Shown piece after piece: positions 46,063 to 64,000 of a stretch of DNA of 64,000 bases. Each line of letters starts with the position of its first letter. Position 1 is the first letter of the stretch. Position numbers and translations under genes: made by a program. Where the stretch lies: assembly GCA_035546035.1 (NCBI GenBank), contig DASZXC010000008.1, positions 123,951 to 187,950 of the forward strand, given 5' to 3'. The notes beneath the pieces were generated by a model, which saw nothing but the letters and a program-made list of their open reading frames with translations, was not told the DNA's origin and ran no database searches. The DNA is from Minisyncoccota bacterium. Its GTDB lineage: Bacteria; Patescibacteriota; Minisyncoccia; Phycocordibacterales; UBA6065.

Positions 46063-46091
46063 TTGACATAAAGTACTATAAGGTGTATAAT
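46063..46091 (+). promoter_or_regulatory. Consensus sigma70 promoter (TTGACA-17 nt-TATAAT)
   Basis: ttgaca at 46063-46068, a 17-nt spacer, tataat at 46086-46091. About 60 nt downstream is a consensus RBS aaggagatacaat-ATG (46155). Confidence 0.7.
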
Positions 46092-46154
46092 ATAATAAAG
46101 TTCATTGAGTAGAGGAAACCAAAACCGCCCGAATAAGGGCAAGGAGATACAATA

Positions 46155-46751
46155 ATGAGCACACATGCAGGATTCGCGGCCGCCGCTCCGGCGTTTAGCC
46201 GGCTCGGCGCCCTCTTCAGGAGATTCGCCGGTAGGGAAAGCGCGTTTCGCCCTGTACGGGGCGGCGTTCAGAACGGGATCATCCGCTTCAAGCTCACGGG
46301 CCGGGGAATGACCGATGAGCAATGGCTTGCCCGTTTCAAAGCCAGGGGTATCCGGGTCGAAGACCAAGCCAGAAGCGTGCTCCGTACGTCGGAGTTCAAA
46401 CCTGCCGAAGGCGTCGTCGCTGCGGAGGTTGCGATCCTGAAGGACGCGATCTGGCGCGGCTGCGATCGGAGCACCGAGAATATCCGGGTCTTCGCCGCCG
46501 GGCATGGGCTCGGACGGCCGAATGCCGACCTCGCCTGCCTTATCCGCGACTCGCTCTCGGACCAGGAGATCGAGGCGATGGGCCTCCGCTGGATCGTCGC
46601 CATGCACGAACCGATCAAGGATCCCTATGGCGATCCCGGCCTCCTCGCCGCAGGGCCCGGCCGCTGTCTGGATGCGTATTGCGTCAGGCCCGGCCAGACT
46701 TGGAAGCGAGGGATCGGTTTTGCGTTCATCGTCCCTCAGGCAAGCCCTTGA
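46155..46751 (+). CDS. Hypothetical protein (GC-rich cassette; no recognisable family)
   Basis: 198-aa ORF with a perfect AAGGAG RBS 8 nt upstream and a consensus promoter. Arg/Ala/Gly-rich. GC visibly higher than the flanks. The overlapping minus-strand ORF 45963..46607 was rejected. Confidence 0.5.
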   Translation: MSTHAGFAAAAPAFSRLGALFRRFAGRESAFRPVRGGVQNGIIRFKLTGRGMTDEQWLARFKARGIRVEDQARSVLRTSEFKPAEGVVAAEVAILKDAIWRGCDRSTENIRVFAAGHGLGRPNADLACLIRDSLSDQEIEAMGLRWIVAMHEPIKDPYGDPGLLAAGPGRCLDAYCVRPGQTWKRGIGFAFIVPQASP

Positions 46752-46765
46752 GGCCGCGTCATAGC

Positions 46766-46799
46766 CCCGTTCCGGTTTACCGGAACGGGGCTATTTTTT
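46766..46799 (+). terminator. Intrinsic terminator after the cassette ORF
   Basis: ccccgttccgg-tttac-cggaacgggg-ctatttttt. Confidence 0.75.
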
Positions 46800-46818
46800 C
46801 GCGTGCTATACTTTTTCT

Positions 46819-57796: not shown

Positions 57797-57872
57797 GCGC
57801 CTATAGCTCAGTTGGTTAGAGCATCGAGCTTATACCTCGAGGGTCCTTGGTTCGAATCCAAGTAGGCGCACC
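57797..57872 (+). tRNA. tRNA-Ile with anticodon UAU (reads AUA)
   Basis: Manual fold of gcgccta-ta-gctc-agttggtta-gagc-a-tcgag-ctTATac-ctcga-gggtc-cttgg-ttcgaat-ccaag-taggcgc-a-cc. All four stems pair (acceptor 7 bp). T-loop TTCGAAT. Anticodon loop c-t-TAT-a-c. CCA not encoded. Confidence 0.8.
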
Positions 57873-57890: not shown

Positions 57891-59423
57891 TTGGAAGCAT
57901 CGAAAGCAATGAATATATTCACTTATCTCAAACGTCACTCGGTACTCGCCACGACGCTCGCCATCGTGGCCGTTATAATGATGATCATCGCCGGCAGGAT
58001 GGCCGCGCGCAAAGGCGCCGCGATAGAGACGAATCTGGGCGCCCGCCAGGTCGCATTGGTCGCCGCGTCCGCCTTTAGGAAAGACGCTTCGACCGTCTCT
58101 GCGAACGGCACCGTAGAATCTATCGCCCAGGCCGACCTGAAAAGCCAGACATCCGCGCCCGTCTCGTCTATAAATGCCCAGGTGGGTGACAGCGTCTATG
58201 CAGGTCAGGTCATCCTGGAATTGAAGAACGCCGACATCCGTGCGCGCCTCGATCAAGCGAAGGCCTCTCTCGCATTGGCGCAGGGCCAGTACGAGACGGG
58301 CACGGTGTCGCTCGATTCTGCTCGGACAGGCGCTCGCGACAAGGCGAGGGACGCCTATTCAGCCGTCGACCAGGCGGCGAGGGGCCAGCTCGACCAGTTC
58401 TTGTTCAATGCTGCATCGGGCGTTCAGCCCCTTTCCGCGCGCGTCTCCGACGCCAAGCTCATCGACCAGCTCCACGCCGATCGCGACGACCTCGAGAACT
58501 ATCTCGCTCCCTGGAAGGCTAAGGTCGATTCGCTTACCGATACTTCCGACAATGACGAGCTCTTGGGCGTGCTGGCCCAGTCCAAGGTCGTCCTCGCTTC
58601 GGCGCAGAAACTGTTCGACGACGCCTCGACGGCTCTCAATTCCTTGTCCAAAGACATGTCATCATCCGATGCCGCCACCATTTCAGGATGGAAGGCCGTC
58701 GTCTCGTCCGCGAAGGCGTCCGTTTCGGGCGCGAGCGCGGCAGTGACGTCGGCTGATACGGCGCTCCGCAACGCCCAGTCGGGCCGCGGCACGACGGCAG
58801 AAGCGTCTATTGCTTCGGCGGAAGCCGGCGTAAAGAGCCTCGAAGCTGAGCTCGCCAAGACGATCGTCGTCTCTCCTATAAATGGCAAGGTCGCCGCGGT
58901 GCCTCTCCGCGTCGGCGAACTGGCGTCGCCGGGGACTCTCCTCGCGAGCGTCGTCGGCAGCCAGGGCCTTCAGGTCAAAGCCTTCGCGAGCGGGGAAGAC
59001 ATAGCGCGCATCACCAAAGGCGCGCCGGCGACTATCGCCGGCGCGGTCCAGGGCGTCGTTTCGGCCGTCGCTCCGAGCGTTAATCAGACCAATAAGAAAG
59101 TCGAGGTGACGATAGCCGTCTCGAATCCCGATCGGACGAACCTCGTCGTAGGGCAGAGCGTTTCGGTGGCCATCAAAGGCGCGTCGCAGACGGGCGCGAA
59201 TGCTGCGGGCTCGTACTTCCTGCCGATCCAGAACGTCAAGATAGTCCCCGGCGACGCGTATATATTCACCATCAACGCTGATTCGAAGCTCGTAAAGCAT
59301 TCGGTCACGCTCGGCGCGGTCCAGGGCGATTTCATCGAAGTCACGAGCGGTATCGCCGACGACATGAGGATCGTCTCGCCGGTATACGAATTGGAGGAAG
59401 GCCAGAAAGTAGACGCGGAATAG
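57891..59423 (+). CDS. Efflux RND periplasmic adaptor (membrane-fusion/HlyD family)
   Basis: N-terminal TM anchor, long coiled-coil Ala/Gln-rich hairpin region, then C-terminal beta-barrel ..VVSPINGKVAAVPLRVGE...G. An alternative start is possible at Met 57909. Confidence 0.75.
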   Translation: MEASKAMNIFTYLKRHSVLATTLAIVAVIMMIIAGRMAARKGAAIETNLGARQVALVAASAFRKDASTVSANGTVESIAQADLKSQTSAPVSSINAQVGDSVYAGQVILELKNADIRARLDQAKASLALAQGQYETGTVSLDSARTGARDKARDAYSAVDQAARGQLDQFLFNAASGVQPLSARVSDAKLIDQLHADRDDLENYLAPWKAKVDSLTDTSDNDELLGVLAQSKVVLASAQKLFDDASTALNSLSKDMSSSDAATISGWKAVVSSAKASVSGASAAVTSADTALRNAQSGRGTTAEASIASAEAGVKSLEAELAKTIVVSPINGKVAAVPLRVGELASPGTLLASVVGSQGLQVKAFASGEDIARITKGAPATIAGAVQGVVSAVAPSVNQTNKKVEVTIAVSNPDRTNLVVGQSVSVAIKGASQTGANAAGSYFLPIQNVKIVPGDAYIFTINADSKLVKHSVTLGAVQGDFIEVTSGIADDMRIVSPVYELEEGQKVDAE

Positions 59424-59439
59424 CGCGCCATAGATCATT

Positions 59440-62400
59440 ATGGATCATAAGAATAACGAGCATTCATCCGACAGCCGATATCTCGAACGCCTGACGTTCA
59501 ATCCGGAGCTCCGAAAGACGTGGCTCAACTTTTTCGTCACCAATTTCCGCGTGGTCATGCTCCTTATCCTCGTCATCACGGCGTGGGGCATATATTCGTT
59601 CGCGAGCCTGCCGCGCGAATCGAATCCCGAGGTAAAGATACCGATCGGCATCGTTTCGACGGTCTATCCGGGCGCGTCCCCGTCCGACGTCGAGGAATTC
59701 GTCACCAAGAAGATCGAGTCAAAGCTATCCGGCCTGAAGGGCGTCAAGAAAATCACGTCGAATTCCTACAATTCGCTTTCGTCGGTTCAGGTCGAGTTCA
59801 ACGCATCGGAGAACCTGGCCGACGCTATTCGAAACCTTCGCGACAAGGTCGCCGATGCCAAGCCCGACCTTTCGACCGAAGCGAAGGATCCTATAGTCAC
59901 CGAGATATCGCTCGACGATACGCCAATGTGGGCGATCTCCCTTACCGGACCCTATGATGGATTCACTTTGCGCGCATTCGCCGAAGACGTCAAAGACCAG
60001 CTCGAGCGCATCCCGGGCGTCAGGGAAGTGCATATATCCGGCGGCGACGAGACCGAATACGAGATCGCGTACAGGCCCGACGATCTTATCTTTTACGGCA
60101 TAAGCGCCGACGACGCCAACCGCGCTATCTTGTCGGCGAACGTCGCCATTCCTGCCGGAAACTTCGAGAGCGGCGCGTTCATATTCCCGATCCGTGCCGA
60201 CGGCCGCATGACCGAAGCCGACGAGATCGGTAACATTCCCGTCACCCATATGGCCGACGGGGGAACCGTCTATGTCCGAGACGTGGCCAACGTATCCGAA
60301 AAGGCCGTAAAGAAAACGTCGTATTCGAGGCTCTCTATCGGCGGCTCCGATCCGAAGAATGCGGTCAGCCTTTCCGTCGTAAAGCGCCAGGGCGCATCGG
60401 TTCTCGAGACTGCTGCGGCGGCGCGAGCAGTCGTCAATGCCGCCATCGCGAAATCGTCGCCGGGCATCACGTACAACGTGTCGCTCGACATGGCCAAAGA
60501 GATCGAGAAGAGCTTCGATCAGCTTTCGCACGACTTCCTCATAACCGTGCTCCTTGTTTCGGTCATCTTGTTCCTCATCGTCGGCCTCAAGGAAGCGTTC
60601 GTGGCAGGTCTCGCCATTCCGCTCGTATTCTTCGTGAGCTTCGGCTTTCTCCACGTGTTCGGCATGACGCTGAACTTCCTGTCGCTCTTCTCGCTCATAC
60701 TTTCGCTCGGCCTTCTCGTGGACGACGCTATCGTGGTGGTGTCCGCAACCAAGCAATATATCAATACGGGCAAATTCACGCCGGAAGAGGCGGTCCTATT
60801 GGTGCTCAACGACTTCAAATGGGTGCTCACCACGACGACCCTGGCGACGGTGTGGGCATTCCTGCCGCTCCTCATGGCGTCCGGTATCGTGGGCGAATAC
60901 CTTAAATCCATTCCGATCACGGTCTCGATCACGCTCGTCTCGTCGCTTCTGATCGCGCTCATGGTCAATCATCCATTAGCGGCTGTTCTCGAGCGCATTC
61001 GCATGACCAAGAAGCTCTTCTATGTCGCGGAAGCAGGCCTGGTCGTATTTGCGGGCATGATGTTCTATAACGCGGGTATGATACCGATCGTCCTCGGCAT
61101 CATCGCATTGGCTATCGAAGGCTGGCTCATATATTGGTATGAGAAGGGCGGCCGCGAAAAGATGGTCGAGAATGAGAGGCTCGTCGAAAGGGAATGGAAG
61201 GACGACGCTCTGGTCAGGCGCAAGCTCGCCGAGCAGGGCGCAAAGAACCACGATACGCTCACGTCGCGTTTCATACACGGCATCGTCAATTTCCATCGCT
61301 TCCTCCCAATATACGAGCGATCGCTCAAGCACTATATCTTCGACAAGAAGCGACGCCGATGGGTTTTGGGCGGCGTGACGGCTCTGTTCATCGCTTCTCT
61401 CATGCTCGTCGCGACGGGAATCGTCCGAAACGAATTCTTTCCGCAGTCTGACCAGGACTATGTATATATAGACGCGCGCGCGGCCGTCGGCTCGACGCTC
61501 GATCAGACGGACAGGCTTATCGCCCCTATAGAGAAGCGCGTGCAGGGATATGCCGAAGTCGGAAGCTATTCGAGCGTCGTCGGCCAGTCGAGCATCGCGG
61601 GCGGGGGATTCGGCGGCGGCACGGGCGCGTCGAACCTGGCGTCCATAACGCTTACCCTCAAGGACAAGAAAGACAGGGCGCATACGTCGTACGAGCTCGC
61701 CGATATCATCCGAAAGGACCTGACCGACGCGGATATTCCGGGCGTGACCATCAGCGTGTCGGCGCAGACGGGCGGCCCTCCGGCAGGCGCGGCATTCCAG
61801 GCCAATATCGCAGGCGACGACCTGACGGTACTGACGAAGATCATCAATGATCTGAAGCCGATCGTCGCTTCGATCCCGGGCGCGGTGAATGTGGATTCGT
61901 CTCTTAAAGATTCCGTCCCAGAATATACGTTCAAGCTCGACCAGACGGCGCTCGAGCGCAATTATCTGACCGCCGCTTCCGTCGGCACGACCCTTCGCAC
62001 CGCGGTTTCCGGCGTCGAATTGATGAAGGTCATAAAAGGGGAGAAAGAGATCAGCCTTCAGGCGACGTTCGACCGCGCCTCTATCCCTGACCTCGCTTCG
62101 ATCCAGAATCTCGAGATATTGAATGCACAGAAGCAGCCGGTATTCCTAAAAGACGTCGCGACGATCGAATTGCGCCCGGCCGTGGACACGATCACGCGCA
62201 TAGACCAGAAGCGCACGGTCGTCCTGACCGCCGCCGCCGACTCGACGACGAACGGCCCAGCGCTCCTCGCCGCATTCCAGAAAAAGACCGCCGACTACCG
62301 CTTGCCGGCAGGCTACACCATCACGTTCGGCGGCGAGAACGAGCAGAACGCCGAATCGTTCGCGTCTATACTCCGCGCTATGTTGATCGCCATGGTGCTC

Positions 62401-62847
62401 ATCGTCTCGACGCTCGTCATCCAGTTCAATTCGTTCAGGAAGGCGATCATCGTCCTGGTGCCGATCCCTTTGGCGCTTATCGGCGTATTCTGGGGCATGG
62501 CGGTATTCGACGTGTCGCTCGGCTTGCCCGGTTTGATCGGCATTCTCGCCCTATTCGGCATCGTGGTCAAAAACTCGATCATCCTGGTGGACAAGATCAA
62601 TCTGAACCTGAAGAGCGGCATCGCATTCGTCGACGCCGTCGCCGATGCGGGCAAGTCGCGACTGGAGGCCATCTTCATCACCTCCATCTGCACCATATTC
62701 GGCATATTGCCGGTGACGCTTTCCGATGAATTCTGGCGCGCGCTCGGCAGCTCGGTCATATTCGGCCTCATGCTGTCGTCGTTCCTGACGCTCTATATAG
62801 TGCCGGCGGTGTATCTCATCGTGATGAGGTCCAAAGAGGGAGAGTAG
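59440..62847 (+). CDS. RND superfamily efflux transporter permease (AcrB/HAE-like), 1135 aa
   Basis: Twelve-TM, two-large-loop architecture. Conserved ..FNPELRKTWLNFFV.. N-terminus and ..SLGLLVDDAIVVV.. TM4 motif. Confidence 0.85.
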   Translation: MDHKNNEHSSDSRYLERLTFNPELRKTWLNFFVTNFRVVMLLILVITAWGIYSFASLPRESNPEVKIPIGIVSTVYPGASPSDVEEFVTKKIESKLSGLKGVKKITSNSYNSLSSVQVEFNASENLADAIRNLRDKVADAKPDLSTEAKDPIVTEISLDDTPMWAISLTGPYDGFTLRAFAEDVKDQLERIPGVREVHISGGDETEYEIAYRPDDLIFYGISADDANRAILSANVAIPAGNFESGAFIFPIRADGRMTEADEIGNIPVTHMADGGTVYVRDVANVSEKAVKKTSYSRLSIGGSDPKNAVSLSVVKRQGASVLETAAAARAVVNAAIAKSSPGITYNVSLDMAKEIEKSFDQLSHDFLITVLLVSVILFLIVGLKEAFVAGLAIPLVFFVSFGFLHVFGMTLNFLSLFSLILSLGLLVDDAIVVVSATKQYINTGKFTPEEAVLLVLNDFKWVLTTTTLATVWAFLPLLMASGIVGEYLKSIPITVSITLVSSLLIALMVNHPLAAVLERIRMTKKLFYVAEAGLVVFAGMMFYNAGMIPIVLGIIALAIEGWLIYWYEKGGREKMVENERLVEREWKDDALVRRKLAEQGAKNHDTLTSRFIHGIVNFHRFLPIYERSLKHYIFDKKRRRWVLGGVTALFIASLMLVATGIVRNEFFPQSDQDYVYIDARAAVGSTLDQTDRLIAPIEKRVQGYAEVGSYSSVVGQSSIAGGGFGGGTGASNLASITLTLKDKKDRAHTSYELADIIRKDLTDADIPGVTISVSAQTGGPPAGAAFQANIAGDDLTVLTKIINDLKPIVASIPGAVNVDSSLKDSVPEYTFKLDQTALERNYLTAASVGTTLRTAVSGVELMKVIKGEKEISLQATFDRASIPDLASIQNLEILNAQKQPVFLKDVATIELRPAVDTITRIDQKRTVVLTAAADSTTNGPALLAAFQKKTADYRLPAGYTITFGGENEQNAESFASILRAMLIAMVLIVSTLVIQFNSFRKAIIVLVPIPLALIGVFWGMAVFDVSLGLPGLIGILALFGIVVKNSIILVDKINLNLKSGIAFVDAVADAGKSRLEAIFITSICTIFGILPVTLSDEFWRALGSSVIFGLMLSSFLTLYIVPAVYLIVMRSKEGE

Positions 62848-62877
62848 ATTGACTTTTCTATAGAAAGTGCTATAATA
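62848..62877 (+). promoter_or_regulatory. Near-consensus sigma70 promoter (TTGACT-17 nt-TATAAT) with no downstream protein gene
   Basis: ttgact at 62848-53, a 17-nt spacer, tataat at 62872-77. Confidence 0.65.
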
Positions 62878-62883
62878 CACAAA

Positions 62884-63118
62884 GGATACTCATTGGAGGT
62901 TTGATGCTACCCGCCACATGGTGTGACGGAGTGCAATTAGCCTCCAATGAGTCGAAAAAGAACGAAGCTGACGAAGAGTGATAGGCGAGTGCTTAAAAAC
63001 TTCGCGCTAGAAGTAGTTGCCCTGTGGATCTTGGTCCTGCCTCTAGCCTATTGGCTTCTTTGGGCCCTTGATCACCGGTACGATTAAAATCAGAGCCGCA
63101 AGAGCGGCTCTTTTATTT
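62884..63118 (+). ncRNA. Candidate structured small RNA of about 230 nt, identity unknown
   Basis: Promoter at 62848-77. Immediate 12-bp perfect hairpin acucauuggagg...ccuccaaugagu (62892-62957) enclosing a second hairpin ccgccaca-ugg-ugugacgg. Intrinsic terminator agagccgc-aaga-gcggctct-tttt at 63092-63118. No ORF longer than 12 codons with an RBS. Confidence 0.35.
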
Positions 63119-63176
63119 CGTTCGAATGCTTGGCAGGCCGACACTCCTGAGAGACCGATATTCTTCGTCTTTTCTC

Positions 63177-64000
63177 TCATTCGAAATGTATCTTGTCCCC
63201 GGCTCGGCGCTCGAGCTCTGCGCGGAGGCGGGGGAAGCGGGTCAGCGAATCGTCTTCGCCGACGAGGCGGAGCGCCTCATTGCGGGCAGCTTCGACCATC
63301 TTTACATTCTGTATCGCTTCCATGGCGATGTCGGATATGCCCCACTGCTTCCTGCCGTACAATTCGCCCGTGCCGCGGAACTTCAGGTCAAATTCAGCCA
63401 GTTCGAATCCGTTTTTGGCGGTCGAAAGCGCTTTCAGCCGCTTGATGGTCTTTTCGCTCTGTGTTTCGGCGAGGACGAAGCAATATGCCTGGTGGTTCGA
63501 GCGCACGACGCGGCCGCGGAGCTGGTGCAATTGGGCGAGGCCGAACCTTTCCGCGCCTTCGATCAGGATGACCGTAGCGTTCGGCACGTTCACGCCGACC
63601 TCGACGACGGAGGTGGCGACGAGGATATGTATCTTGCCGCGCTTGAATTCGAGCATGACGCGCTCTTTCTCGGCGTCTTTCATCTTACTGTGCAAAACGC
63701 CGATCTCACATTCCTTGAACACGGTCTCTTTAAGGCGTTTCGCCTCTTCTTTCACCGATTTTGCCTGGACGGCGCTCTCTTTGGTCGGGTCTGGCTCGTC
63801 TATGCGGGGGCATATGACATACGCCTGTCGGCCTTCGCGTAATTGGGCGCGGATCGCTTCGTATGCCTGTTCCCGGTCCATGACGTCGGCACTCGTTTTG
63901 ACGCTTTTCGCCGGAGCGACGATCTTCGTTATGATCGGCTTCCTGCCGTGGGGCATGGAATCGAGGAGCGATATATCGAGGTCTCCGTAGATAGTAAGAG
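63177..64000 (-). CDS. recG: ATP-dependent DNA helicase RecG, C-terminal part (N-terminus off-window to the right)
   Basis: Minus-strand frame gives helicase motifs ..YVICPRIDE.. and HSKMKDAEKERVMLEFKRGKIHILVATSVVEVGVNVPNATVILIEGAERFGLAQLHQLRGRVVR (motif VI), typical of RecG. Confidence 0.8.
   Translation of the reverse strand, partial: LTIYGDLDISLLDSMPHGRKPIITKIVAPAKSVKTSADVMDREQAYEAIRAQLREGRQAYVICPRIDEPDPTKESAVQAKSVKEEAKRLKETVFKECEIGVLHSKMKDAEKERVMLEFKRGKIHILVATSVVEVGVNVPNATVILIEGAERFGLAQLHQLRGRVVRSNHQAYCFVLAETQSEKTIKRLKALSTAKNGFELAEFDLKFRGTGELYGRKQWGISDIAMEAIQNVKMVEAARNEALRLVGEDDSLTRFPRLRAELERRAGDKIHFE

What the first reader, a model, noticed from the sequence alone, without database searches (positions are those of the whole stretch)
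62848..63118. Orphan consensus promoter driving a ~230-nt structured transcript with terminator: candidate novel sRNA
TTGACT-17-TATAAT (62848-62877) is followed by sequence with no plausible ORF. The sequence has a 12-bp perfect hairpin (acucauuggagg/ccuccaaugagu) nesting a second stem-loop, further GC-rich pairing segments, and a clean intrinsic terminator at 63092-63118. It lies in a convergent gap between the RND transporter and recG. It does not show the SRP-RNA GGAA/AGCAG domain IV motif or RNase P conserved regions that I can recognise.
Basis: seen in the sequence. Interest (0 to 1): 0.5.

Follow-up and report, generated by a model that had tools for sequence, protein, structure and literature searches.

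The report
Orphan small gene with locked start
The promoter, hairpin and terminator are real, but the roughly 235-nt transcript most likely encodes an unannotated 46-residue membrane peptide whose start codon is buried in the hairpin, and it is strain-specific cargo absent from all relatives rather than a conserved structured small RNA.

Summary
The window is from a Candidatus Paceibacterota (CPR) genome.
- a near-consensus extended -10 promoter (62849-62876);
- a 12-14 bp hairpin with a nested stem (62888-62952, z = -5.9);
- a terminator (63092-63118) that reads as a terminator on both strands.

- "No plausible ORF" is wrong. ATG 62947 to TAA 63087 encodes 46 aa, with a +7 charged N-terminus and one clean transmembrane helix. 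The stop lies 4 nt before the terminator stem. A 25-aa upstream ORF has a GGAGG Shine-Dalgarno (SD) sequence.
- The 136-nt body is no more structured than shuffled sequence (z = -0.75).

Peptide features this strong occur in none of 661 random ORFs from related DNA. Both the SD and the ORF46 AUG are fully paired in the hairpin, and opening that region costs about 21 kcal/mol.

No RNA family, protein family or homologue matches anywhere. Five syntenic relatives have flanks 78-87% identical but entirely different content in this gap, so covariation cannot be tested.

Best reading: a lineage-specific small mRNA with a translationally locked start, built like a type I toxin mRNA but with no antitoxin evidence. 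A noncoding or dual-function sRNA, or a decaying gene remnant, remain possible.

The parts
62849..62854 (+). -35 hexamer TTGACT (5/6 matches), starting 2 nt after the RND stop codon
62855..62866 (.). Perfect 12-nt palindrome TTTCTATAGAAA filling the promoter spacer. It may be an operator (inferred). It is unique in the window and absent from the 97 loci.
62868..62876 (+). Extended -10 element TGcTATAAT (6/6 plus TG). The predicted start of transcription is about 62883-62884 (inferred from the usual 7-nt distance).
62888..62952 (+). 5' hairpin. Perfect 12-bp arms at 62888-62899 and 62941-62952 extend to 14 bp with U-A and U-G pairs, and a second stem-loop is nested inside. Energy -35.5 kcal/mol, z = -5.9. 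It sequesters the SD and the ORF46 AUG.
62895..62899 (+). GGAGG Shine-Dalgarno (SD) sequence, 4 nt before ATG 62904. A conserved 130-aa gene in this clade has the same geometry. P(unpaired) = 0.000 in the full transcript, but it is largely free in the nascent 53-nt RNA.
62904..62981 (+). Upstream ORF of 25 aa (MLPATWCDGVQLASNESKKNEADEE). It overlaps the first 35 nt of ORF46 in another frame. Whether it is translated is unknown.
62947..63087 (+). ORF46: MSRKRTKLTKSDRRVLKNFALEVVALWILVLPLAYWLLWALDHRYD. Net charge +7 in residues 1-19, one hydrophobic helix (KD19 = 2.29), tail DHRYD. The AUG lies in the 3' arm of the hairpin, and TAA is 4 nt before the terminator stem.
63092..63118 (.). Intrinsic terminator: 8-bp stem AGAGCCGC/GCGGCUCU with a 4-nt loop, then UUUUAUUU. 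The scan also calls it on the minus strand, with tail GAUUUUAAUC. It is shared with the RND operon and with recG.
59440..62847 (+). Upstream neighbour: AcrB-family RND pump of 1135 aa (100% identical to HVU06610.1), preceded by a HlyD-family adaptor at 57891-59423. There is no terminator between its stop and the element.
63177..64000 (-). Convergent neighbour: recG 3' part. The reading frame stays open to the window edge.

Best explanation
The RND-recG gap holds a lineage-specific, self-contained small gene.

A strong sigma-70-type promoter, possibly repressor-controlled through the palindrome in its spacer, starts a roughly 235-nt RNA at about 62883. The RNA has three parts:
1. a very stable 5' hairpin;
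2. an unstructured body that is the reading frame of a 46-residue peptide, with a basic cytoplasmic N-terminus and one C-terminal transmembrane helix;
3. an intrinsic terminator 4 nt after the stop codon.

The folded RNA is translationally locked. The only Shine-Dalgarno (SD) sequence, GGAGG, sits in the 5' arm and pairs with CCUCC in the 3' arm, and the ORF46 AUG lies inside that same helix.

The inferred mechanism is a kinetic or regulated gate. On the nascent RNA the SD and the AUG of a 25-codon upstream ORF are exposed before the 3' arm is made. A ribosome translating the upstream ORF, or a nuclease or helicase that opens or cuts the helix, would free the ORF46 AUG. This resembles the way mok translation gates hok in type I toxin mRNAs. 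Once folded, the RNA is silent and probably long-lived.

Shown by computation: the promoter, hairpin, ORF, peptide features, occlusion of the start site and absence from relatives. Inferred: transcription itself, translation, the gating mechanism, and any toxic or membrane function.
For: - Promoter: 11/12 with an extended -10. Chance expectation is 0.01 per window. The other three sites of >=11/12 in the window all precede real genes: nusA, an SD-led 198-aa gene and tmRNA.
- ORF46 exists. An ATG ORF of >=46 aa arises in 3.5% of dinucleotide shuffles of the transcript body, and one ending within 10 nt of the terminator in 0.8%.
- Hydrophobic core KD19 = 2.29 was matched by none of 137 spurious ORFs in the window and by 6 of 661 in GC-matched related DNA. 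None of the 661 also had an N-flank charge of >= +5.
- AlphaFold2, single sequence: one helix spanning residues 10-45, mean pLDDT 84.
- Of the six frames over the ORF span, the ORF46 frame scores far best on the genome's codon table: -6, against -15 to -51 for the others.
- The ORF body is unstructured (z = -0.75), while the leader hairpin (z = -5.9) and terminator (z = -4.75) are structured. This is the layout of an mRNA.
- P(unpaired) is 0.000 for the SD and 0.001 for the ORF46 AUG. Freeing positions -10..+13 costs 21 kcal/mol. In the 53-nt nascent RNA the SD takes part only in a weak 3-bp helix.
- The GGAGG-4 nt-ATG geometry is the same as for a 130-aa gene whose SD is conserved in this clade.
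- The gap is a cargo hot spot. Relatives carry ClpP-like, inositol-phosphatase, or YafQ/RelB plus methyltransferase genes there, or nothing.
Against: - No homologue of ORF46 exists: 0 hits in 1.84 billion representatives, and none in Pfam, NCBIfam, PHROGs, PADLOC or the PDB. There is therefore no evolutionary evidence of selection on the frame.
- The codon score of -6 lies below the 5th percentile of real genes here (mean 19, sd 10). GC3 is 0.54 against 0.70. That fits foreign origin, or noncoding sequence.
- ORF46 has no SD of its own, and its AUG is buried. In a genome that mostly uses leaderless, unstructured starts, it might never be translated.
- The ORF is not annotated in the source record.
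- No antisense promoter faces the ORF, so the type I toxin analogy lacks its second component.
- The statistics were computed after the ORF had been seen.
Confidence: 0.45

Rival explanations
1. It is a true regulatory small RNA, noncoding or dual-function. The 5' hairpin would protect the RNA, the 136-nt single-stranded body would pair with target mRNAs, and the ORF would be incidental or a second function, as in SgrS/SgrT or RNAIII/hld.
For: - Strong orphan promoter and a terminator about 235 nt apart.
- A stable 5' stem-loop 5 nt from the predicted 5' end.
- A long accessible body, mean P(unpaired) 0.45.
- The start codon is fully occluded.
- The codon score is poor for a real gene.
- Another full-consensus promoter in the window precedes a stable RNA, tmRNA.
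Against: - No Rfam match, even at E <= 10.
- The element is absent from 97 related loci, including 5 syntenic ones, so there is no conservation or covariation.
- No extended complementarity to anything else in the 64-kb window.
- The body shows no structure above chance.
- The ORF's membrane-peptide features and the placement of its stop are improbable for an incidental frame.
Confidence: 0.25
2. It is a decaying remnant. The promoter, leader and N-terminal membrane anchor would be left over from a longer cargo gene that was truncated by the rearrangements that churn this hot spot. It would have no present function.
For: - The gap content differs in every relative although the flanks are 78-87% identical, which indicates frequent gain and loss.
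- A basic N-terminus followed by one TM helix is also the shape of a signal-anchor of a larger protein. A chance-level example is in L033.
- GC is lower (0.46-0.50 against 0.56), and codon usage is foreign.
Against: - The promoter, hairpin and terminator are all intact and near-perfect. A perfect 12-bp stem and an 11/12 promoter would erode quickly without selection.
- The ORF stops 4 nt before the terminator, like a complete gene.
- No longer protein with a similar N-terminus was found.
- No tblastx trace of a longer gene in any frame.
Confidence: 0.2
3. ORF46 is an accessory subunit of the adjacent RND pump, analogous to AcrZ with AcrB. It would be co-transcribed by read-through from the HlyD-RND operon and boosted by its own promoter.
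For: - It is co-directional, starts 99 nt after the RND stop with no terminator between, and shares the terminator.
- It is a single-pass peptide of AcrZ-like size.
Against: - None of 16 relatives with an orthologous pump (70-85% identity) has any similar or analogous small TM ORF downstream. In 7 of the 11 metagenome loci examined, trpS follows within about 60 nt of the RND stop.
- No match to any Pfam family, AcrZ included.
- The topology is opposite: a basic N-terminus then the TM helix. In AcrZ the TM helix is N-terminal (from established knowledge, not tested here).
Confidence: 0.07

Closest known systems
Type I toxin mRNAs (hok/mok-sok, Fst, TisB, ZorO and others)
   Same: - A peptide under 60 aa with one TM helix and a polar/aromatic C-terminal tail (criteria of Fozo et al. 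2010, PMC2887945).
- A highly structured 5' region that hides the ribosome-binding site and start codon.
- An overlapping upstream reading frame that could gate translation, as mok does for hok.
- Narrow, patchy distribution.
- A location in a hot spot that holds a type II TA module (YafQ/RelB) in a relative.
   Different: - No antisense or nearby sRNA antitoxin promoter was found.
- There is little room for one: 99 nt upstream and 89 nt downstream, against the >400/>250 nt heuristic.
- No homology to any toxin family.
- The charge is at the N-terminus rather than the C-terminus.
- Toxicity is untested.
Small single-pass membrane proteins (AcrZ, MgrB, Prli42-type tail-anchored miniproteins)
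   Same: - 30-50 aa, with one TM helix and a short charged cytoplasmic segment.
- Often unannotated.
- AcrZ partners an AcrB-family pump, and ORF46 lies next to one.
   Different: - No sequence similarity to any of them.
- Not conserved with the pump in relatives.
- The translational lock by a -35 kcal/mol hairpin is not a feature of those genes (from established knowledge, not tested here).
Dual-function or independently transcribed sRNAs at the 3' ends of operons (SgrS/SgrT, RNAIII/hld, SR1/SR1P; own-promoter 3'-UTR sRNAs such as MicL and DapZ)
   Same: - A discrete promoter-to-terminator unit of about 200-250 nt at the end of an operon, sharing the operon's terminator.
- It contains a small ORF.
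   Different: - No conservation, no identified target complementarity and no family match.
- The promoter lies just after the stop codon, not inside the upstream ORF.

Membership tests
Known RNA families (Rfam 15, including SRP RNA, RNase P RNA, 6S RNA, riboswitches and thermometers) | Covariance-model score at or above the family's gathering threshold | tested here: not met
   At gathering thresholds the whole window gives only tRNA and tmRNA. Scanning 62700-63300 at E <= 10 gives only chance-level hits of 11-17 bits.
Generic independent sRNA gene | Own promoter and own intrinsic terminator in an intergenic gap | tested here: met
   Caveat: the terminator is also needed by recG and by the RND operon.
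Generic independent sRNA gene | No credible protein-coding frame | tested here: not met
   ORF46 has features rare among random ORFs.
Generic independent sRNA gene | Conservation and structural covariation in relatives | tested here: not met
   No similar sequence in 97 loci. Five syntenic relatives have different gap content. With no homologues, covariation cannot be computed.
Type I toxin-antitoxin | Peptide under about 60-70 aa with a predicted TM region (at least 10 of 15 hydrophobic residues) and a polar/aromatic C-terminus (PMC2887945) | tested here: met
   ALEVVALWILVLPLA has 12 of 15 hydrophobic residues. The tail LLWALDHRYD has 6 of 10 polar or aromatic residues. KD19 = 2.29.
Type I toxin-antitoxin | Toxin mRNA folded so that the ribosome-binding site or start is occluded | tested here: met
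   P(unpaired) is 0.000 for the SD and 0.001 for the AUG. Opening the region costs 21 kcal/mol.
Type I toxin-antitoxin | Antisense or nearby sRNA antitoxin complementary to the toxin mRNA | tested here: not met
   No -10/-35 candidate on the minus strand opposite 62950-63090. No complementary sequence elsewhere in the window. A distant trans-encoded antitoxin cannot be excluded.
Type I toxin-antitoxin | Homology to a described toxin family | tested here: not met
   Pfam, NCBIfam and PADLOC gave no hits; PHROGs gave only E >= 0.11.
Type I toxin-antitoxin | Growth arrest or membrane damage on overexpression | not testable with these tools
   Needs an experiment.
AcrZ-like RND accessory peptide | Sequence membership in the AcrZ family, or co-occurrence with the pump across relatives | tested here: not met
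   No Pfam hit. No such ORF downstream of orthologous pumps in 16 relatives.
Leaderless mRNA (the common gene type in this genome) | Start codon at the transcription start, 6-8 nt after the -10 box | tested here: not met
   The first ATG is 27 nt after the -10 box (28th nt, 62904), and the ORF46 ATG is 70 nt after it.

The most novel reading that the evidence does not exclude
This would be the first type I toxin-like, or dual-function sRNA, module described in a CPR/Patescibacteria genome. An SD-sequestering hairpin with an upstream-ORF gate would control a membrane peptide in an organism that otherwise translates almost without SD sequences. The module would sit as mobile cargo in the same hot spot where a relative carries a type II toxin-antitoxin pair.
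Probability: 0.12. Interest if true: 0.55.

Novelty: new member of a known kind. Interest (0 to 1): 0.28.

Why it matters
If ORF46 is real, it is one more unannotated membrane miniprotein, in a phylum where small proteins and RNA-based regulation are essentially uncharted. Its SD/anti-SD lock in an almost SD-free, largely leaderless genome would be a convenient natural test of how translation initiation is chosen in Parcubacteria. It does not bear on any long-standing open question. It is confined to one genome, so its general importance is low unless an activity such as toxicity, pump modulation or regulation is shown.

Tried and rejected
- **Rfam.** Scans at gathering thresholds and at E <= 10 gave nothing.
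- **Protein family and structure libraries.** Pfam, NCBIfam, PHROGs, PADLOC and the PDB gave nothing for ORF46, and the family libraries nothing for the upstream ORF. Pfam and NCBIfam gave nothing for a 45-aa minus-strand ORF.
- **Protein homology.** The word-index search gave no hit, and the exhaustive phmmer search of 1.84 billion representatives gave none.
- **Back-translated pattern scans.** A two-copy self-alignment got round the 48-residue limit. The scans of metagenome and viral contigs then gave nothing.
- **Searches of fetched loci.** blastn, nhmmer, tblastn and tblastx of the element against 80 recG loci, 13 RND loci and 4 closer syntenic loci gave only chance hits. The best, in L033, is the N-terminal anchor of a longer unrelated protein.
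- **Phage and plasmid collections.** No match.
- **L092.** It looked 97% identical over 60 aa but is an unrelated low-GC contig.
- **Exact look-ups in the contig index.** The look-up of the RND protein failed, so the source contig's own gene calls could not be read.
- **Rejected readings.**
  - SRP, 6S and RNase P RNA: no model hit, and the fold is not rod-like.
  - Integron attC and CIRCE: my reading of the hairpin sequence shows no matching end motifs. No scan was run.
  - A paralogous or repeated element: the hairpin arm is unique in the window.
  - A remnant of L004's ClpP-like gene: no tblastx similarity.
  - An antisense antitoxin: no promoter.
- **Literature.** I found no paper on leaderless translation, sRNAs or type I toxins in Parcubacteria/Patescibacteria. 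One paper reports the anti-SD motif in only 48% of Parcubacteria (PMC9297842).

Full report
**Origin and neighbours.** RecG and RND relatives place the window in Candidatus Paceibacterota (Parcubacteria, CPR/Patescibacteria). The RND pump is 100% identical to NCBI protein HVU06610.1 from a Paceibacterota MAG. The finding lies in the 329-nt gap between two genes:
- an AcrB-family pump at 59440-62847 (+), which follows a HlyD-family adaptor;
- the convergent 3' end of recG at 63177-64000 (-), whose frame stays open to the window edge.

**Checking the observation.**
- **Promoter.** It is real: TTGACT at 62849-62854, a 16-nt spacer, then TGcTATAAT ending at 62876.
  - My scan of both strands of the window found only four sites with >=11/12 matches, against 0.24 expected. 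With the TG motif there were two, against 0.01 expected.
  - The other three strong sites all sit upstream of real genes: nusA, an SD-led 198-aa gene with its own terminator, and tmRNA.
- **Hairpin.** The perfect 12-bp inverted repeat is at 62888-62899 and 62941-62952. With its nested stem it folds at -35.5 kcal/mol (z = -5.9).
- **Terminator.** The stem at 63092-63111 plus its U-tract is real. The scan also calls it on the minus strand. Nothing terminates the RND operon before it, so it serves three transcripts and is not private to this unit.

- **There is an ORF**. ATG 62947 to TAA 63087 encodes MSRKRTKLTKSDRRVLKNFALEVVALWILVLPLAYWLLWALDHRYD.
  - An overlapping 25-codon ORF starts at 62904, 4 nt after a GGAGG.
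- **The transcript is not structured along its length.** Folded in parts, the 136-nt body has z = -0.75, while the leader and terminator account for the overall z of -4.3. The unstructured body coincides with ORF46. A structured leader, an open coding body and a stop codon 4 nt before the terminator make up the layout of a small mRNA.

**Is ORF46 more than chance?**
- *For:* An ATG ORF of >=46 codons appears in 3.5% of dinucleotide shuffles of the transcript body. One ending within 10 nt of the terminator appears in 0.8%.
- *For:* The product has net charge +7 in its first 19 residues and a 19-residue hydrophobic core of mean Kyte-Doolittle 2.29.
  - None of 137 spurious ORFs nested in genes of this window reaches that hydrophobicity.
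  - In 235 kb of GC-matched related DNA, 6 of 661 random ORFs reach it, and none also has the charged N-flank.
- *For:* AlphaFold2 predicts one helix over residues 10-45 (pLDDT 84). This is weak evidence, since the prediction used a single sequence.
- *For:* On the genome's codon table the ORF46 frame scores -6, while the other five frames score -15 to -51.
- *Against:* Real genes average +19 on that table (sd 10). GC3 is 0.54 against 0.70, and local GC is 0.46-0.50 against 0.56. This fits foreign, recently acquired DNA, or a frame under no selection.
- *Against:* These tests were done after seeing the ORF.

**Translation context.**
- Almost no gene in the window has a Shine-Dalgarno (SD) sequence: 2 of 62 ORFs of >=90 aa.
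- 19 of the 62 have a TAnnnT box just upstream of the start codon, which suggests leaderless mRNAs.
- A published survey found the anti-SD motif in only 48% of Parcubacteria (PMC9297842).
- SD use is not absent here, however.
  - A 130-aa gene next to tRNA-Ile has GGAGG-4 nt-ATG, and the SD is kept in two of three close relatives.
  - The 198-aa gene has AAGGAGA.
  - The upstream ORF of the finding has the same GGAGG-4 nt-ATG geometry.
- In the full-length RNA, P(unpaired) is 0.000 for that SD and 0.001 for the ORF46 AUG. Forcing positions -10..+13 of ORF46 open costs 21 kcal/mol.
- In the first 53 nt of nascent RNA the SD takes part only in a weak 3-bp helix.
- Inference: the hairpin is a translational lock. 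It could be bypassed co-transcriptionally through the upstream ORF, or opened by processing.

**Comparative evidence.**
- ORF46 and the element have no detectable relative in any of these:
  - protein-family and structure libraries;
  - 5.8 billion clustered proteins, by word index;
  - 1.84 billion representatives, by exhaustive phmmer;
  - metagenome or viral contigs, by back-translated patterns;
  - phage or plasmid records;
  - the 97 fetched loci.
- The exact peptide is not in the 15-billion-protein collection although its neighbour is, so it is unannotated.
- Five relatives keep the RND-to-recG arrangement. Four of them (L094-L097) share 80-87% DNA identity with the window at the RND end. 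Three of those share 78-79% at the recG end. In L097 recG lies farther off and gave no DNA match. The fifth, L004, has recG 77% identical at protein level. Each has different gap content:

| Locus | Content of the RND-recG gap |
|---|---|
| L095 | 41 nt, just a terminator |
| L096 | 186-nt long hairpin, unrelated in sequence |
| L094 | inositol-phosphatase gene |
| L097 | 186-aa gene, YafQ/RelB and a methyltransferase |
| L004 | SD-led ClpP-like gene |

- In more distant relatives the pump is followed by trpS, and recG abuts tRNA-Ile(UAU).
- The element is therefore strain- or species-specific cargo in a hot spot.

**Explanation and rivals.**
- **Best reading, about 0.45.** A small mRNA for a 46-aa membrane-anchored peptide with a hairpin-locked start. 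It resembles type I toxin mRNAs in peptide type, RBS occlusion, overlapping upstream frame and patchy distribution.
  - It fails membership of that family on the antitoxin: no antisense promoter and no complementary sequence in the window.
  - It also fails on homology and on spacing from its neighbours. I therefore say it works like one and do not file it as one.
- **Noncoding or dual-function sRNA, about 0.25.** The promoter, 5' stem, accessible body and occluded AUG fit. Nothing positive supports it beyond that.
- **Decaying remnant of a truncated cargo gene, about 0.2.** This fits the hot spot, but not the pristine state of the promoter, stem and terminator.
- **AcrZ-like pump accessory peptide, about 0.07.** Adjacency suggests it. 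Its absence next to 16 orthologous pumps argues against it.

**Verdict.**
- The sequence features are real and non-random. The ORF-less structured sRNA interpretation is only partly supported.
- The element is best described as an orphan, unannotated small gene: a new member of a known kind.
- Interest is modest. It would rise if translation gating or toxicity were shown in a CPR bacterium.

Noticed in passing
window 62855-62866: A perfect 12-nt palindrome, TTTCTATAGAAA, fills the spacer between the -35 and -10 of the finding's promoter. It is unique in the window and absent from all 97 loci. It may be an operator for an unknown repressor.
   Followed up: partly
window 265-150 (minus strand): A TTGACA-16-TGaTATGAT promoter is followed by a GC-rich hairpin and a U-tract (about 225-185) before the nusA start codon (about 150). 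It looks like a leader attenuator or a very short RNA upstream of nusA.
   Followed up: no
window 46063-46800: A perfect 12/12 promoter (46063-46091) precedes a 63-nt leader with an AAGGAGA SD, then a 198-aa ORF (46155-46751) with no Pfam match, then a strong terminator. This is another orphan, SD-led, strongly promoted gene in an otherwise SD-poor genome. A naive longest-ORF call picks the opposite strand here.
   Followed up: partly
window 54975-54946 (minus strand): A perfect 12/12 promoter lies inside the 3' part of smpB, 127 nt upstream of the mature tmRNA 5' end (54818). It is probably an internal promoter for ssrA.
   Followed up: no
whole window: Genes almost never have an SD (2 of 62 ORFs of >=90 aa). 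19 of the 62 have a TAnnnT box just upstream of the start codon, which suggests leaderless mRNAs. The exceptions with GGAGG-type SDs are a 130-aa gene at 57695-57300 (-), the 198-aa orphan gene, and cargo genes in relatives (L004 ClpP-like, L089 74-aa ORF).
   Followed up: partly
L096 6403-6588: In this close relative the RND-recG gap is a 186-nt near-perfect long hairpin (-88 kcal/mol, z = -5.85) plus a terminator. A TTGACG-17-TAGAAT promoter-like site lies inside the hairpin. There is no Rfam match, and the sequence is unrelated to the window's element.
   Followed up: partly
L094, L095, L096, L097, L004 (RND-recG junction): The junction is a cargo hot spot. Depending on the genome it holds an inositol-phosphatase gene, nothing, a long hairpin, a 186-aa gene with YafQ/RelB and a methyltransferase, or a ClpP-like gene. 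The flanking DNA stays about 78-87% identical in L094-L097.
   Followed up: yes
window 57797-57870; L002 4750-4824; L006 5164-5238: tRNA-Ile(UAU) lies directly next to recG in more distant relatives, but upstream of the HlyD-RND operon in the window's clade. The whole pump operon plus the gap may therefore be an insertion beside this tRNA.
   Followed up: no
window 63113-63135 vs 63177-63195: Just past the terminator, the motif TTCGAATG resembles the recG 3' end (TTCGAAATG). It may be a relic of an older recG end or of a junction. It could also be chance.
   Followed up: no
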